A stretch of 11,441 nucleotides of DNA from a virus. The position numbers were made by a program, and so were the translations under genes. Positions 2,852-6,300 of this stretch are shown here, in pieces. The DNA lies in the UHGV virus genome UHGV-0368337; one strand, 5' to 3'. The number at the start of each line of letters is the position of its first letter. Within the stretch, counting starts at the first letter, position 1. The notes beneath the pieces were generated by a model, which was not told the DNA's origin, did not search any database, and saw nothing but the letters and a program-made list of their open reading frames with translations.

Positions 2852-3559
2852 TTACCAGCTATGTGATGACCAGAACACTCGCCCTATGATTCTTACGTTT
2901 TTGTAGAATTCTTCTCTGTTCATTACTTCATCAGGATACTCTTCGCGGTTTATCGATCTGATAATTACCGATGTTGGCGTGGCTATGAGCGTTTTTACCC
3001 TTAACAAATCAGCTTGGCAAATTGCATATGTTTTACCATCCCTGATGCTCGTATCTCGCGTGTTTACCCCCACCACATCACCATCATGGAGTGTTGGCTC
3101 CATGCTTTGCCCAACAACCCTGACCAACTTTGCCGCTTTTTCTGGAACTCCCATTTTTTTCAGGTAATAGCGCCTAAAAACTAGAGAGAATTCTGCGGAC
3201 TCCTCCAATGCACAACTTCCTCCGCCAGCTGAAAGTGAAATATTTAGAAGGGGGAGCGCAACAAATTCTTCATTATCATTTTGATGATCATCCCAGGCGA
3301 TAGCTTTTAAAGATGATTCCCGAGCATTAGATGGCTCTTCTGCGCTCTGTGGTCTCATTGACCCTATACCAGAGCTTAGCCATTCAGGGCGAACTCTTAA
3401 CGCGTTGGCTAATTCGACCATTTTACGTGATCCGGTTGTTTTACCAGATGACATCTTTTGTATGGCTGGTTGTGATACCCCCACCATGTCTGCAAGTTGT
3501 GCTTGTGACAACCCGGCTGAACTCATGGCGGCATTTAGTCTTTCTGCGAATGTTTTCAT
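2852..3559 (-). CDS. cI: CI-type prophage repressor (N-terminal HTH, C-terminal S24/LexA-like autopeptidase)
   Basis: 235 aa. N-terminal HTH (LSQAQLADMVGVSQPAIQKM), Ala-Gly cleavage region (LSAGGG), catalytic serine motif GQSMEP and downstream lysine (RVK). Divergent from the cro-like gene with operators between them. Confidence 0.9.
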   Translation of the reverse strand: MKTFAERLNAAMSSAGLSQAQLADMVGVSQPAIQKMSSGKTTGSRKMVELANALRVRPEWLSSGIGSMRPQSAEEPSNARESSLKAIAWDDHQNDNEEFVALPLLNISLSAGGGSCALEESAEFSLVFRRYYLKKMGVPEKAAKLVRVVGQSMEPTLHDGDVVGVNTRDTSIRDGKTYAICQADLLRVKTLIATPTSVIIRSINREEYPDEVMNREEFYKNVRIIGRVFWSSHSW

Positions 3560-3570
3560 ACCTGTAATCT

Positions 3571-3636
3571 ATAACCACGGTTATCAAAAGTAAAACAACA
3601 ATTGTTATTGCCCTGGTGTATAACTCATATTATTTT
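3571..3636. promoter_or_regulatory. OR region: three operator palindromes plus candidate PR (and PRM)
   Basis: ATAACcacgGTTAT (3571..3584), ACAACaattGTTAT (3596..3609), ATAACtcatATTAT (3620..3633), centre spacing 24-25 bp. Candidate PR TTGCCC (3608..3613), 17 nt, TATTTT (3631..3636), about 30 nt upstream of cro. PRM hexamers not resolved. Confidence 0.6.
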
Positions 3637-3669
3637 TGGTTATGCTTTATTTGCTGTAGAGGTATGCTC

Positions 3670-3894
3670 ATGAATTTAGTGATTCAGCGAGCCTTGAATA
3701 TTGTTGGCAGTCAAAAACGACTTGCAGCTGATTGCGGCGTATCACAGCCCGCTGTTCATAAATGGTTGCGAGGCGGAAAAGTTTCTCCTGAAAAAGTTTT
3801 CGCTATCGTTAATGCCACCAATGGTCAGGTTAAGGCTTACGAAATTCGCCCGGACTTACCGCACCTGTTTCCTCATCCGAACCAGGCTGAATAA
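3670..3894 (+). CDS. cro: Cro/YdaS-like HTH regulator
   Basis: ORF track 3616..3894; preferred start ATG at 3670 (GAGG 9 nt upstream), alternative 3664. HTH segment QKRLAADCGVSQPAVHKWLRGG. First gene rightward of the operators, divergent from cI. Confidence 0.75.
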   Translation: MNLVIQRALNIVGSQKRLAADCGVSQPAVHKWLRGGKVSPEKVFAIVNATNGQVKAYEIRPDLPHLFPHPNQAE

Positions 3895-3901
3895 GTAACA
3901 C

Positions 3902-3942
3902 CGCTCTTTAACATTGCTGGTCGTTCACCTCTAACAGGGTGA
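3902..3942 (+). promoter_or_regulatory. nutR: boxA (CGCTCTTTAACATT) plus boxB hairpin
   Basis: CGCTCTTTAACATT at 3902..3915, then hairpin TCACCT-CTAACA-GGGTGA at 3925..3942, immediately after the cro stop and before cII. Confidence 0.65.
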
Positions 3943-4010
3943 GCAAACATCAGTGGCAAACCCATTGGGGATTGCCGCTTAACCCCATATCAATATAGGA
4001 AAATTAACAA

Positions 4011-4307
4011 ATGTCACAAACAAGTTACAGCAAACTGTCACAGCGCGATATCGATCGCGCTGAAACGGATTTACTTATCAACCTGTCAGCTCTGACGCAA
4101 AGGGGACTGGCGAAGATGATTGGCTGCCATGAATCGAAGGTCAGTCGTACCGACTGGCGATACATCGCGGCGATTTTATGCGCGTTCCAGATGGCATCTG
4201 ATATCAGTCCGATCAGCCGGGCTTTCCAGCATGCCATTAACGTTCATGCAAATAAAAAACGTCCGGTTGGGGCCGGACGTTCTGAGCAAATCCTGATGAA
4301 CATCTGA
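4011..4307 (+). CDS. cII: CII-family transcriptional activator
   Basis: 98 aa. C-terminal ...NKKRPVGAGRSEQILMNI parallels lambda CII ...NKKRPAATERSEQIQMEF; HTH region in the middle; AGGAAA RBS. Position between cro/nutR and the replication genes is as in lambda. Confidence 0.8.
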   Translation: MSQTSYSKLSQRDIDRAETDLLINLSALTQRGLAKMIGCHESKVSRTDWRYIAAILCAFQMASDISPISRAFQHAINVHANKKRPVGAGRSEQILMNI

Positions 4308-4371
4308 TATTCAGGCAGGGCATGGAGCAATACACGGGAATAATTCTGCCACATCTGGAAGAATTTCGCCA

Positions 4372-4440
4372 GCAACAACACCAACCGCAGCAGCCTGAAG
4401 CCGATTGGGTTAACCCGGGAGATACCGGGACCGTCTGCGG
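4372..4440. repeat. diverged partial copy of internal O-gene segment 5121..5212
   Basis: 4372..4406 matches 5121..5155 with 1 mismatch and 4407..4440 matches 5179..5212 with 2 mismatches. The 23 bp 5156..5178, bounded by a GAAGCCGATT direct repeat, are missing from the upstream copy. Confidence 0.8.
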
Positions 4441-4470
4441 TATGGAGTAAATCTTGTATGCGAGGGGACT

Positions 4471-5553
4471 ATGCGTAATTACGCAACAATTTCACCTCAG
4501 TTCTGGTTAGGCGATACAGGGCGAAAACTAAGGAAGTCTGGTCCGGAAAGTATGGTAGTGGCGTTGTATATGATGACCTCGCCTCATTCCAATATGCTGG
4601 GCCTTTATTACCTGCCTGTTTTGTACATTGCTCACGAAACCGGACTTGATCCTGAAGGGGCTTCTAAGGGGCTTCAAATGGCTTGCGAGGCTGGTTTTTG
4701 CAGCTATGACCATGATTCTGAGGTTGTATGGGTGCATGAAATGGCAGCATGGCAGGTTGGTGAATCGCTGAAACCTGGCGATAACCGTTGTGCTGGGGTA
4801 AGAAATGAATATTCCGCGTTGCTGGAAAATCCTTTTTTATCATCCTTTTATGATAGATATAAGGATGATTTCCACCTGGATGTCAGACGTGAATCATGTC
4901 GGAAAATTGAAGCCCCTTCAGAGCCCCTTTCAAGCCAAGAACAGGAACAGGAACAAGAACAGGAAAGGGATAAAACCCTTCTGGTCCATGGCGAAAAAAT
5001 CGCCACGGACCCACAGGGGGATTTTTGTCCTGTTCTGACTGAACGTCCAGGACCAGCGGGCACGACACCGGAAGCAGATTCCGGGCGTTGTGTGCAGCAG
5101 GTGCTGATCGTCGAACCGGAGCAACAACGCCAACCGCAGCAGCCTGAAGCCGATTCCGCGATGAGCGGGAAGCCGATTGGGTTAACCCGGGCGATGCCGG
5201 GACCGTCTGCGGGACGAGTTGATTATCCTGACGTGTTCGAACGGGTCTGGCGTGAATATCCGCATCGGGCAGGGTCAAACCCGAAGAAATCCGCGTTCAA
5301 TGCCTGGAGGGCCAGATTACGCGAAGGGGTGTCACCGGATGTCGTGCTGGATGGCGTGAGGCGTTACGCAAGATACCTGGAGGCTACCGGGAAAGCGGGA
5401 ACTGAATTTGTTCAGCAGGCATCGACGTTTTTTGGCCCGAACAGGAATTTCGAAAATCCGTGGTCGCTGCCGAAGGCTGGCGCAGTCAGCCTGCGTTGCG
5501 TGAATCACATTTCTGAACCGGACACCGAAATTCCGCCGGGTTTCAGGGGGTAA
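4471..5553 (+). CDS. phage replication initiation protein (O-like/YdaU-like), with QEQEQEQE linker
   Basis: 360 aa; GAGGGG RBS. Immediately upstream of, and stop-start coupled to, the DnaC-like gene. Acidic/Gln-rich interdomain linker; C-terminal F-E-R-V-W-R-E-Y-P...A-F-N-A-W segment. Function inferred mainly from position. Confidence 0.7.
   Translation: MRNYATISPQFWLGDTGRKLRKSGPESMVVALYMMTSPHSNMLGLYYLPVLYIAHETGLDPEGASKGLQMACEAGFCSYDHDSEVVWVHEMAAWQVGESLKPGDNRCAGVRNEYSALLENPFLSSFYDRYKDDFHLDVRRESCRKIEAPSEPLSSQEQEQEQEQERDKTLLVHGEKIATDPQGDFCPVLTERPGPAGTTPEADSGRCVQQVLIVEPEQQRQPQQPEADSAMSGKPIGLTRAMPGPSAGRVDYPDVFERVWREYPHRAGSNPKKSAFNAWRARLREGVSPDVVLDGVRRYARYLEATGKAGTEFVQQASTFFGPNRNFENPWSLPKAGAVSLRCVNHISEPDTEIPPGFRG
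4937..5036. other. candidate replication origin inside the O-like gene
   Basis: Four tandem hexamers GAACAG/GAACAA (4939..4962), A-tract hairpin GGCGAAAAAATCGCC (4990..5004), and TCCTGTTCT (5028..5036), which is the reverse complement of AGAACAGGA in the repeats. Location parallels lambda ori inside O. Confidence 0.3.
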
Positions 5554-5559
5554 TCAGCC

Positions 5560-6300
5560 ATGAAAAACATTTCGACTGGAGGGATTCTTGAACGGGTGCG
5601 CCGTCTGGCACCACCGCACGTGGCAGCACCGTTCCGGACGACCGACGAATGGCGGGAATGGCAACTGGCTGAGGGCCGTAAGCGCAGCGAGGAAATTAAC
5701 CGCCTGAATCATCAGGCGCGGGTTGAAAAAATCCTGAACCGTGCGGGCATCCAGCCGCTTCACAGGAAGTGCTCATTCGGGAACTACCGGGTGCAGAACG
5801 ACGGTCAGCGCCATGCTCTGAGCCAGGCGAAATCCATTGTCGATGAATTGATGACCAGTTATACAAACTTCGTGTTCAGCGGGAATCCGGGAACCGGAAA
5901 AAATCATCTGGCGGCGGCTGTGGGTAATCGTCTGCTGAAGGCCGGTAAATCCGTGATAGTGGTCACCGTGGCGGATGTGATGAGCGCGTTACATGCCAGC
6001 TATGACGACGGACTGTCAGGGGAAAAATTTTTGCGTGAACTGTGCGAAGTGGACCTCCTGGTTCTTGACGAAATTGGCATCCAGCGTGAGACGAAAAACG
6101 AGCAGGTGGTACTGCACCAGATTGTTGACCGCCGGACGGCATCACTGCGCAGTGTCGGGATGCTGACAAACCTGAATCATGCCGCAATGAGCACGCTTCT
6201 TGGTGAGAGGATTATGGACCGGATGACCATGAACGGTGGTCGTTGGGTGAATTTTAACTGGGAGAGCTGGCGGTCAAACGTTGGACGTCAGGGTATGTGA
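5560..6300 (+). CDS. DnaC-like helicase loader / replication protein (P-analog, YdaV-like AAA+ ATPase)
   Basis: 246 aa. Walker A FSGNPGTGKNHLAAAVG and Walker B DLLVLDEIG, characteristic of DnaC/IstB-type loaders. AGGGGG RBS. Confidence 0.9.
   Translation: MKNISTGGILERVRRLAPPHVAAPFRTTDEWREWQLAEGRKRSEEINRLNHQARVEKILNRAGIQPLHRKCSFGNYRVQNDGQRHALSQAKSIVDELMTSYTNFVFSGNPGTGKNHLAAAVGNRLLKAGKSVIVVTVADVMSALHASYDDGLSGEKFLRELCEVDLLVLDEIGIQRETKNEQVVLHQIVDRRTASLRSVGMLTNLNHAAMSTLLGERIMDRMTMNGGRWVNFNWESWRSNVGRQGM

What the first reader, a model, noticed from the sequence alone, without database searches (positions are those of the whole stretch)
4937..5036. Origin-like architecture inside the O-like gene
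Four tandem GAACAG/GAACAA hexamers, an A-tract hairpin GGCGAAAAAATCGCC, and an inverted copy of the repeat unit (TCCTGTTCT) sit in the region coding the QEQEQE interdomain linker. In lambda, ori iterons and an AT-rich tract lie in the equivalent linker-coding part of O. The repeats are short, so they may simply reflect the low-complexity linker.
Basis: inference. Interest (0 to 1): 0.4.

Follow-up and report, generated by a model that had tools for sequence, protein, structure and literature searches.

The report
Likely replication origin inside initiator gene
The flagged hexamer repeats are a length-variable stretch coding a Gln-Glu linker in a prophage replication-initiator gene, but right next to them lie 11-base repeats conserved as DNA (not as protein) across very distant phages, which are the more likely origin/initiator-binding sites.

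Summary
Five CARGAA hexamers (4936-4965) and a 29-nt hairpin (4983-5011) sit in the linker-coding part of a 360-aa replication initiator (4471-5553; Stx-phage 'Eru4' type, with a Rac YdaV-like DnaC loader downstream).

The hexamers show no synonymous-site constraint, and their copy number varies (4-8) among near-identical genes. The hairpin and the 'inverted copy' are lost in sister lineages.

The strong DNA-level signal lies beside them: tandem 11-nt units GAAG(GGG/CCC)CTTC at 4654-4675 and 4909-4936.
- In 66 diverged homologues (hosts of 36-68% GC) their synonymous positions are almost fixed.
- The second cluster occurs in either orientation, read as EGASKGL or as EAPSKPL.
- Copies also occur in non-coding DNA upstream of some homologues.
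- The 9-mer core is about 50 times commoner inside the gene than in its flanks.

The N-domain models as a winged helix. Most likely these 11-mers are the initiator's binding sites in a gene-internal origin, as in lambda; nothing here tests replication or binding.

A hexamer array of some sequence (QE, KD, MD, GK, SN...) always follows the 11-mers, even in initiator genes with no detectable N-domain similarity. Whether it acts as DNA or only as a linker is unresolved.

The parts
4471..5553 (+). Replication initiator gene (360 aa). It has an N-terminal winged-helix domain (aa 1-~140), a disordered linker (~141-245) and a C-terminal domain ending in a DnaT/YdaU-like tail.
4654..4675 (.). 11-mer cluster 1: GAAGGGGCTTC TAAGGGGCTTC (two tandem units, GGGG core on the coding strand). 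It codes EGASKGL at the start of the putative recognition helix.
   Evidence: TRF period 11. In 66 diverged homologues the codons are GAA 100%, GGG 97%, GCT 77%, AAG 100%, GGG 82%, CTT 89%, against a background of 20-66%. The exact 9-mer occurs at +181..+195 in most homologues.
4800..4880 (.). AT-rich stretch (30-37% GC) between the two 11-mer clusters, with the hairpin ATCATCCTTTTAT/ATATAAGGATGAT at 4839-4869. Candidate unwinding region; weak evidence.
   Evidence: Composition profile. Inverted repeat I10. Fold z = -3.5. In high-GC homologues the GC3 dip here is only modest.
4909..4936 (.). 11-mer cluster 2: GAAGCCCCTTC AGAGCCCCTTT CAAGCC (2.5 tandem units, CCCC core, i.e. inverted relative to cluster 1). 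It codes EAPSEPLSS in the disordered linker.
   Evidence: TRF period 11 and inverted repeat I1/I7 (13 nt perfect). Codons GAA 100%, GCC 100%, CCT 92%, AAG 100%, CCC 93%, CGA 94%, AGC 100% across homologues. The orientation is flipped to EGASKGL in Klebsiella, Fraca, L037 and L118.
4936..4965 (+). A copy-number-polymorphic microsatellite that starts in register right after the invariant AAGC of the last 11-mer.
   Evidence: array is real; 4-8 copies among close relatives. (present in all 66 representatives, n = 3-17; read in the +1 frame as GAGAGA in 4). (no synonymous constraint).
4983..5011 (.). Lineage-specific.
   Evidence: -11.7 kcal/mol, z = -5.9. The inner stem is kept in L037/L058/L064, lost in L039/L049/L062 and absent in Klebsiella.
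5028..5036 (.). TCCTGTTCT, complementary to the hexamer array. Not conserved.
   Evidence: Mutated in 75/02 Stx (TCCCGTTCT) and L024; the region is unrelated in the L037 group.
5494..5550 (+). C-terminal tail LRCVNHISEPDTEIPPGFRG, shared with Rac YdaU and host DnaT. Probable contact for the DnaC-like loader.
   Evidence: BLASTP 14/20 identical to the YdaU C-terminus. Weak DnaT hits: NCBIfam E = 0.009, PDB 2ru8 E = 0.009. The last ~60 nt recur attached to other genes in many of the 2813 (of 5426) E. coli genomes with any match.
5560..6300 (+). DnaC-like helicase loader, partner of the initiator.
   Evidence: NCBIfam PRK12377, E = 1e-146. 84% identical to Rac YdaV.

Best explanation
The flagged segment is the linker-coding part of a winged-helix replication initiator, in the position of lambda O and followed by a DnaC-type loader.

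The cis-acting element is not the hexamers. It is a set of tandem 11-nt, near-palindromic units, GAAG(GGG/CCC)CTTC, spaced one helical turn apart. Two units lie at 4654-4675 and 2.5 units at 4909-4936. They are embedded in the initiator's own coding sequence and conserved as DNA.

Most likely (inferred, not shown) these are the binding sites (iterons) for the initiator's N-terminal domain, and they mark a gene-internal origin. In that model the initiator assembles on the two clusters. DNA opens nearby, either in the AT-rich 4800-4880 stretch between them or in the purine-rich hexamer tract just downstream. The C-terminal domain and tail then bring in the DnaC-like loader and host DnaB.

The hexamers abut the last 11-mer and encode a (QE)n linker. 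They behave as a slippage-prone microsatellite. Some hexamer array always accompanies the 11-mers, so it belongs to the architecture. Whether it works as DNA (spacer or unwinding tract) or only as a flexible peptide is open. The hairpin and the inverted copy are lineage-specific extras.
For: Shown:
- Context. cI, cro, cII, initiator and DnaC-like loader lie in lambdoid order.
- Fold. The N-domain models confidently as a winged helix. EGASKGL starts the putative recognition helix, and the cluster-2 peptide lies in a disordered linker.
- DNA-level constraint. In 66 representatives under 90% identical, from hosts of 36-68% GC, the 17 codon columns of the two clusters have median G = 96 against 5.4 for the other 92 columns (Mann-Whitney p = 6e-11). 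All of the 11 highest-scoring columns lie in the two clusters (raw frequencies).
- Orientation. Cluster 2 occurs with a CCCC core (EAPSKPL) in most homologues and a GGGG core (EGASKGL) in Klebsiella, Fraca, L037, L118 and others; some arrays are mixed. That is three base changes per unit, which a peptide constraint cannot explain. Cluster 1, inside the folded domain, always has the GGGG orientation.
- Specificity. The exact 9-mer occurs at 2.4 per kb inside the genes and 0.05 per kb in 224 kb of flanks. In the window there are 9 matches with at most 1 mismatch, against 2.6 expected (0/200 shuffles); the 3 exact matches and 1 of the near matches are in this gene.
- Non-coding copies. Acinetobacter homologues and L139 carry pairs or triplets 11 nt apart just upstream of the start codon.
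- Wider reach. The motif pair also occurs in AT-rich phage genes with no tblastn similarity to this N-domain, and two of the six scanned hit the PHROG replication-initiator family phrog_270.
- Modularity. The N-domain with its 11-mers and hexamers travels with unrelated C-terminal halves and different partners, DnaC-like or primase/helicase.
- Precedent. The lambda origin (iterons plus an AT-rich tract) lies in the middle of O, and its iterons are imperfect inverted repeats (PMC7466680). Rac ydaU has its own mid-gene repeats.
Against: - No replication, binding or marker-frequency data exist for this module. The two Eru papers give it no function or origin.
- The clusters have only 2 and 2.5 units and lie about 255 nt apart. 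This is unlike lambda's compact array of four 19-bp iterons.
- No clearly conserved AT-rich unwinding tract was found. The 4800-4880 dip follows largely from amino-acid composition, and GC3 in high-GC hosts dips only modestly there.
- The same 9-mer being kept across such distant initiators is atypical of iterons, which usually diverge along with their initiator.
- AAGGGGCTT/AAGCCCCTT is also a common hairpin-stem sequence, as in the L246 intergenic clusters.
- The genome scan used SQ[ED]QEQ[ED]Q as one of its two search patterns. This biases the claim that the hexamer array is universal. The phage and IMG/VR searches did not use that pattern.
Confidence: 0.6

Rival explanations
1. One reading: the GAACAG hexamers are the iterons, the A-tract hairpin is the AT-rich or structural element, and TCCTGTTCT is an inverted iteron.
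For: The array is statistically real and lies in the linker-coding region, as lambda's iterons do. The hairpin and the long-range pairing fold better than shuffles. A hexamer array is present in every homologue examined.
Against: Synonymous positions in the array drift freely (G 2.9 against 5.4). Copy number varies from 4 to 8 in near-identical genes and from 3 to 17 across the family. In initiator genes with no detectable N-domain similarity the hexamer sequence is entirely different (AAGGAT, ATGGAT, GGTAAN, AGTAAT) while the 11-mer stays the same. The hairpin and inverted copy are lost in sister lineages. A 6-bp period is not helically phased.
Confidence: 0.08
2. The 11-mers are operator sites through which the initiator, or another regulator, controls expression of the replication operon. 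They are not the origin itself.
For: In Acinetobacter homologues and L139, copies overlap the ribosome-binding or promoter-proximal region just upstream of the start codon. Winged-helix proteins are typical transcription factors. Initiators that bind iterons often autoregulate.
Against: In most homologues, including this window, all copies lie 180-500 nt inside the coding sequence with none at the promoter. The position at the domain boundary matches gene-internal origins (PMC7466680). The two roles do not exclude each other.
Confidence: 0.15
3. Conserved DNA at a module boundary: cluster 2 plus the hexamer array serve as a homologous-recombination joint that lets N-domains swap C-terminal halves and partner genes.
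For: Homology between family members ends just after the array, and the C-terminal halves are unrelated. About 45 nt of near-identical DNA sits exactly at that boundary. Four lineages read the array in another frame, as expected after a rearrangement there.
Against: This does not explain cluster 1 inside the folded domain, the upstream non-coding copies, or the orientation flips. In the window's own lineage the mosaic junction with Tritos-like phages is at ~5072, not at the array.
Confidence: 0.07
4. Pure coding effect: the repeats only reflect peptide repeats (EGASKGL, QEQEQE) in a low-complexity protein, with no function as nucleic acid.
For: For the hexamers this fits the free synonymous drift and the length polymorphism. 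The linker is predicted to be disordered.
Against: For the 11-mers it is excluded. Synonymous sites are nearly fixed in hosts of 36-68% GC. The same DNA is read as two different peptides depending on orientation. Copies occur in non-coding DNA. For the hexamers, dipeptides as different as QE, KD, MD, IQ, SN and GA argue against a specific peptide requirement.
Confidence: 0.05
5. mRNA structure: cluster 1 pairs with cluster 2 in the transcript to control translation or stability.
For: In the window the two clusters are 23 nt long and 87% complementary, with a 13-nt perfect core.
Against: In lineages where cluster 2 has the same orientation as cluster 1 (Klebsiella, Fraca, L037, L118...) the two cannot pair. 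No covariation is available because the sites are invariant.
Confidence: 0.03

Closest known systems
Bacteriophage lambda ori within gene O (and the Stx-phage 933W/P27 variants)
   Same: The origin-type repeats lie inside the initiator gene at the junction of the DNA-binding N-domain and the linker. Each unit is an imperfect inverted repeat. Unit number varies between relatives and changes protein length. A loader gene follows immediately (PMC7466680).
   Different: The protein is not a Phage_rep_O member (no Pfam hit). Units are 11 nt, not 19 bp. They form two clusters about 255 nt apart, one of them inside the folded domain. No clear AT-rich tract follows the repeats; a hexamer microsatellite follows instead. 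The partner is a DnaC-type AAA+ loader, not lambda P.
Rac prophage ydaU-ydaV module (oriJ)
   Same: The loader is 84% identical to YdaV. The last 20 residues of the initiator match YdaU (14/20). Klebsiella homologues sit in a Rac-like recE / YdaT-domain / DUF977 context. ydaU also has mid-gene repeats.
   Different: The rest of the initiator is unrelated to YdaU/DUF1376. Rac's repeats are a different motif, AGATGTTCAAACA. The exact position of oriJ could not be retrieved from the papers searched.
Eru4 replication region of Stx phages (Shigella phage 75/02 Stx; PMC8951638)
   Same: The same genes: the initiator is 98% identical at the DNA level, with the same cII, small ORF, initiator and DnaC order.
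   Different: That classification names the module and calls the protein 'unknown function'. In the passages read, it describes no origin, no repeats and no DNA-binding fold.
Replisome-organiser genes with internal origins in Gram-positive phages (e.g. SPP1 gene 38/oriL, lactococcal TP901-1). Recalled from my own knowledge, not checked here.
   Same: The initiator binds direct repeats located inside its own gene. The PHROG label for this protein is 'DnaD-like helicase loader'.
   Different: No sequence relation was tested. The motifs and hosts differ.

Membership tests
Lambda-type gene-internal origin (works-like test) | Initiator with an N-terminal sequence-specific DNA-binding domain and a separable C-terminal domain that recruits the loader | tested here: met
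Lambda-type gene-internal origin (works-like test) | Several repeated binding sites (iterons) in the linker-coding part of the initiator gene, conserved as DNA | tested here: met
   11-nt units at 4909-4936, at the end of the N-domain, plus 4654-4675. Synonymous sites are fixed (p = 6e-11). Cluster 2 occurs in either orientation. There are only 2 + 2.5 units, fewer than lambda's four.
Lambda-type gene-internal origin (works-like test) | AT-rich unwinding tract next to the iterons | tested here: inconclusive
   A 30% GC stretch at 4800-4880 lies between the clusters, but it is explained mostly by amino-acid content. The tract after the repeats is the hexamer array: 43% GC and strongly A-rich on one strand (AT skew 0.55-0.69).
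Lambda-type gene-internal origin (works-like test) | Initiator binds the repeats, and the fragment supports initiator-dependent replication | not testable with these tools
   Needs EMSA or footprinting and a plasmid replication assay.
Lambda O protein family (Pfam Phage_rep_O) | Significant match to the family profile | tested here: not met
   No Pfam-A family at E <= 0.01 for the 360-aa protein.
YdaU / DUF1376 (Rac-type initiator) | Sequence similarity over the DUF1376 domain | tested here: not met
   BLASTP finds only the last 20 residues (E = 2e-6). No Pfam DUF1376 hit.
Eru4 replication module of Stx phages | Near-identity to the replication genes of Shigella phage 75/02 Stx (NC_029120) | tested here: met
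   98.1% DNA identity over 4300-5560, with the same gene order. Eru4 is defined on that phage.
DnaA-dependent origin | DnaA boxes (TTATNCACA) in or next to the repeat region | tested here: not met
   No match with at most 1 mismatch between 3762 and 5858. The count in the whole window is not above chance.

The most novel reading that the evidence does not exclude
'Tandem 11-mers plus an adjoining hexanucleotide microsatellite' is a widespread origin architecture shared by several phage initiator families, from Proteobacteria phages to AT-rich phages. In this reading the hexamer array functions as DNA, for example as the unwinding or helicase-loading tract or as a tunable spacer, and its translation into QE, KD, MD, GK, SN or GA linkers is incidental. 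The initiator gene would then be built around a dual-use DNA element: the same 11-mer codes the start of the recognition helix that reads it.
Probability: 0.2. Interest if true: 0.7.

Novelty: new member of a known kind. Interest (0 to 1): 0.5.

Why it matters
Stx-phage replication type is linked to toxin output and lysogen stability (PMC8044961). For the Eru4 module the Eru papers read here give neither an origin nor a function for the protein.

The 11-mers give a concrete, testable origin and binding site for that module, and for hundreds of prophages in Escherichia, Klebsiella, Acinetobacter, Burkholderiales and other hosts.

The case is also a clean example of dual coding. A DNA site is kept through synonymous-site fixation and can flip orientation only where the encoded peptide is disordered.

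The same core motif is kept across initiators too diverged for tblastn to link. That is unusual for iterons and could be used as a sequence tag for finding phage origins.

Tried and rejected
- Pfam and NCBIfam on the initiator gave no family, only a weak DnaT tail.
- Full-text search for the 11-mer, for the cluster-2 consensus and for QEQEQEQE found nothing relevant.
- The Eru papers say nothing about an origin.
- The oriJ papers held in the library do not give its position.
- The plasmid collection gave 6 hits. The smallest (32 kb) is a linear Rac-like prophage fragment, so it is no independent replicon test.
- DnaA boxes: none near the gene.
- Promoter and terminator scan of 3500-5700: nothing above chance inside the gene.
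- A possible fourth site at +51..+76 in GC-rich homologues is degenerate and may only reflect the KALRK coding sequence; I did not count it.
- GC3 and GC profiles were used to look for a conserved unwinding tract. The dips coincide with the 11-mers and with Glu/Gln codons, and codon use inside the array equals that of the rest of the gene. No independent AT-rich signal was found.
- The intergenic motif clusters in L246 look like hairpin or terminator stems and were left uninterpreted.
- GC-skew analysis was not attempted on an 11-kb window.

Full report
**Context.** The window is the immunity and replication region of a lambdoid prophage.
- Genes in order: cI-like repressor (2852-3559, minus strand), cro (3616-3894), cII (4011-4307), a 42-codon ORF (4323-4448), a 360-aa protein (4471-5553), a DnaC-like AAA+ loader (5560-6300), then DUF1627 and DUF977 genes.
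- The 360-aa protein has no Pfam match. It matches PHROG phrog_1701 ('DnaD-like helicase loader', E = 4e-151), and its N and C halves hit separate PHROG families.
- The segment is 98-99.7% identical to Escherichia phages PhiR5_2 and phiSTEC1589-Stx1c and Shigella phages POCJ13 and 75/02 Stx.
- 75/02 Stx is the type phage of the 'Eru4' replication region, whose protein is described as of unknown function (PMC8951638).
- The loader is 84% identical to Rac YdaV. The initiator resembles Rac YdaU only in its last 20 residues.

- Hexamers: the array is CAAGAA CAGGAA CAGGAA CAAGAA CAGGAA at 4936-4965, coding (QE)5. Its period-6 run of 21 exceeds all 300 dinucleotide shuffles, whose maximum is 17.
- Inverted copy: TCCTGTTCT at 5028-5036 is complementary to the array.
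- Location: the region codes a disordered linker, with pLDDT < 50 from aa 147.

**The flagged features do not look like a conserved cis element.**
- Among genes at least 95% identical, the array has 4 copies (9 genes), 5 (19), 6 (5) or 8 (1). 75/02 Stx has one more unit than the window.
- I took 66 representatives under 90% identical in the N-domain. They come from phage, IMG/VR and GTDB searches and cover Gamma-, Beta- and Alphaproteobacteria and some MAGs.
- In these, the ten array columns show no excess codon fixation: median G = 2.9 against 5.4 for ordinary columns, p = 0.88.
- GAA/GAG and CAA/CAG usage inside the array equals that in the rest of the same genes.
- The hairpin is broken in the sister E. 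coli group (L039, L049, L062) and absent in Klebsiella. TCCTGTTCT is mutated in 75/02 Stx and L024.

**The strong signal lies next to the hexamers.**
- TRF and the repeat finder show two tandem 11-nt units GAAGGGGCTTC/TAAGGGGCTTC at 4654-4675. Their reverse complement, GAAGCCCCTTC/AGAGCCCCTTT/CAAGCC, lies at 4909-4936 and ends exactly where the hexamers begin.
- Aligning distant homologues (72% to about 50% identical N-domains, unrelated C-halves) shows that all keep EGASKGL at aa 62-68.
- At aa ~147-153 they carry either EGASKGL again or EAPSKPL. At the DNA level these are the same sequence in opposite orientation: GAA GGG GCT TCN AAG GGG CTT against GAA GCC CCT TCN AAG CCC CTT.
- Across the 66 representatives, the codons of cluster 1 are GAA 100%, GGG 97%, GCT 77%, AAG 100%, GGG 82% and CTT 89%.
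- Those of cluster 2 are GAA 100%, GCC 100%, CCT 92%, AAG 100%, CCC 93%, CGA 94%, AGC 100% and CAA 81%. Background usage for these codons is 13-66%.
- The 17 cluster columns have median G = 96 against 5.4 elsewhere (p = 6e-11), and all of the 11 top-ranked columns lie in the clusters.
- The exact 9-mer core occurs 146 times in 60 kb of these genes and 11 times in 224 kb of flanks.
- Several flank copies are pairs or triplets 11 nt apart just upstream of the start codon, in non-coding DNA, in Acinetobacter homologues and L139.
- Cluster 1 codes the start of helix 61-73 of a winged-helix fold and always has the GGGG orientation. Cluster 2 lies in the disordered linker and occurs in either or mixed orientation.
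- That pattern is expected if the DNA site works in both orientations and only protein structure limits the choice.

**Beyond this family.**
- An exact scan of IMG/VR for AAGCCCCTTNNAAGCCCCTT reached the 120-locus limit. Of those loci, 81 carry this N-domain, with the motif at the expected positions.
- The other 39 show no tblastn similarity to it.
- Most of the 39 are AT-rich phage genes of about 210-280 codons (MAKRFTDT..., M.YRFTNT...). They carry the motif near the N-terminus and again at about aa 110-145.
- Of six of these proteins scanned, two hit phrog_270 'replication initiation protein', two hit nothing, and two hit other families.
- In these genes the second site is followed by other hexamer arrays rather than (CARGAR)n: AAGGAT (KD), ATGGAT (MD), GGTAAN (GK/GN), AGTAAT (SN), CAGATC (IQ).
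- In 27 of the 39 loci the period-6 run next to the motif exceeds the 95th percentile of random windows from the same loci.
- Within the window's own family, four lineages read (CAGGAR)n in the +1 frame as GAGAGA after a shift in the 11-mer region.
- So a hexamer array is a constant companion of the 11-mers, while its sequence and translation are free.

**Interpretation.** Several properties point to the 11-mers being the initiator's binding sites in a gene-internal origin, as in lambda. There, iterons (imperfect inverted repeats) and an AT-rich tract lie in the middle of O (PMC7466680).
- A near-palindromic site repeated at one-turn spacing.
- Strict linkage to a winged-helix domain.
- Position at the boundary between domain and linker.
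- Tolerance of either orientation.
- Occurrence in non-coding DNA.
- Travel with varying loader partners.

Rac ydaU likewise has its own mid-gene repeats. Binding, unwinding and replication are all inferred; none is shown. The site of unwinding is unclear. It could be the 30%-GC stretch at 4800-4880 between the clusters, which GC3 supports only weakly. It could instead be the purine-rich hexamer tract. No DnaA boxes are present.

**Rival readings.** An autoregulatory operator role remains possible and is compatible with an origin role. A recombination joint, an mRNA structure and pure coding effects each fail to explain cluster 1, the orientation flips or the non-coding copies.

**Caveats.**
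- The GTDB scan used SQ[ED]QEQ[ED]Q as one of two seed patterns, so the universality of the hexamers is partly biased in that set. The phage tblastn search and the IMG/VR scans were not biased in this way.
- The literature check covers open-access text only.
- AAGGGGCTT/AAGCCCCTT can also form ordinary hairpin stems (L246).

**Verdict.**
- Observation: confirmed.
- Interpretation: partly supported. The origin-like architecture is probably real, but it is carried by neighbouring 11-mers and not by the hexamers, hairpin or inverted copy.
- Novelty: an apparently undescribed member of the known class of origins embedded in initiator genes, notable for its dual coding and its very wide conservation.

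Noticed in passing
window 4371-4440 and 5120-5212: A ~70-nt direct repeat (92-97% identical, with a 23-nt insertion in the second copy) brackets the N-domain. Copy 1 is the 3' part of the 42-codon ORF between cII and the initiator; copy 2 lies in the initiator's linker. The first 36 nt are in the same frame (QQ.QPQQPEAD). PhiR5_2 and 75/02 Stx have two tandem upstream copies where the window has one (a 90-nt difference). Recombination between the copies would delete the N-domain and its 11-mers, leaving a short protein similar to the stand-alone family phrog_18526.
   Followed up: partly
window 4256-4283, minus strand: A strong terminator-like hairpin (11-bp stem followed by a T run) lies antisense to the 3' end of cII. 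This is the position of the lambda oop RNA terminator.
   Followed up: no
window 5494-5550: The last 20 residues (LRCVNHISEPDTEIPPGFRG) match the C-terminus of Rac YdaU (14/20) and, weakly, host DnaT (PDB 2ru8, 6aep, 9zbt). The last ~60 nt recur attached to other genes in many of the 2813 (of 5426) complete E. coli genomes with any match. The tail probably docks onto the DnaC/YdaV-type loader.
   Followed up: partly
L289 3472-3578 (E. coli K-12 Rac, inside ydaU): Rac ydaU has its own mid-gene repeats: about five copies of AGATGTTCAAACA in both orientations. This is a candidate for oriJ in the same relative position as the 11-mers here.
   Followed up: no
L168-L287 (IMG/VR), e.g. L171 ~6000, L184 ~3085, L245 ~1750, L264 2540-2760: The same 11-mer pair occurs in AT-rich phage genes with no tblastn similarity to this N-domain (MAKRFTDT..., M.YRFTNT...). 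Of six scanned against PHROGs, two hit the replication-initiator family phrog_270. In these genes the motif is followed by different hexamer arrays (KDKD, MDMD, GKGN, SNSN, IQIQ).
   Followed up: partly
L004, L093, L094, L097, L101 (Acinetobacter) and L139, positions -45 to -13 before the start codon: Two or three extra 11-mer units, 11 nt apart, lie in non-coding DNA overlapping the ribosome-binding region. This may indicate autoregulation in these lineages.
   Followed up: partly
L134, L141, L148, L152: In four lineages the (CAGGAR)n DNA is read in the +1 frame as GAGAGA/GTGAGA, after a change in the 11-mer region that is not a multiple of three.
   Followed up: partly
window 4964-4981: The inverted repeat AAGGG-ATAAAA-CCCTT lies immediately after the hexamers and resembles split halves of the 11-mer core. 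It scores as terminator-like on the minus strand and is not conserved in the L037 group.
   Followed up: no
L246 3245-3352 and 3668-3787: Two ~110-nt intergenic clusters each carry six copies of AAGGGGC/GCCCCTT in both orientations, some forming long hairpins. Whether they relate to the initiator motif is unclear.
   Followed up: no
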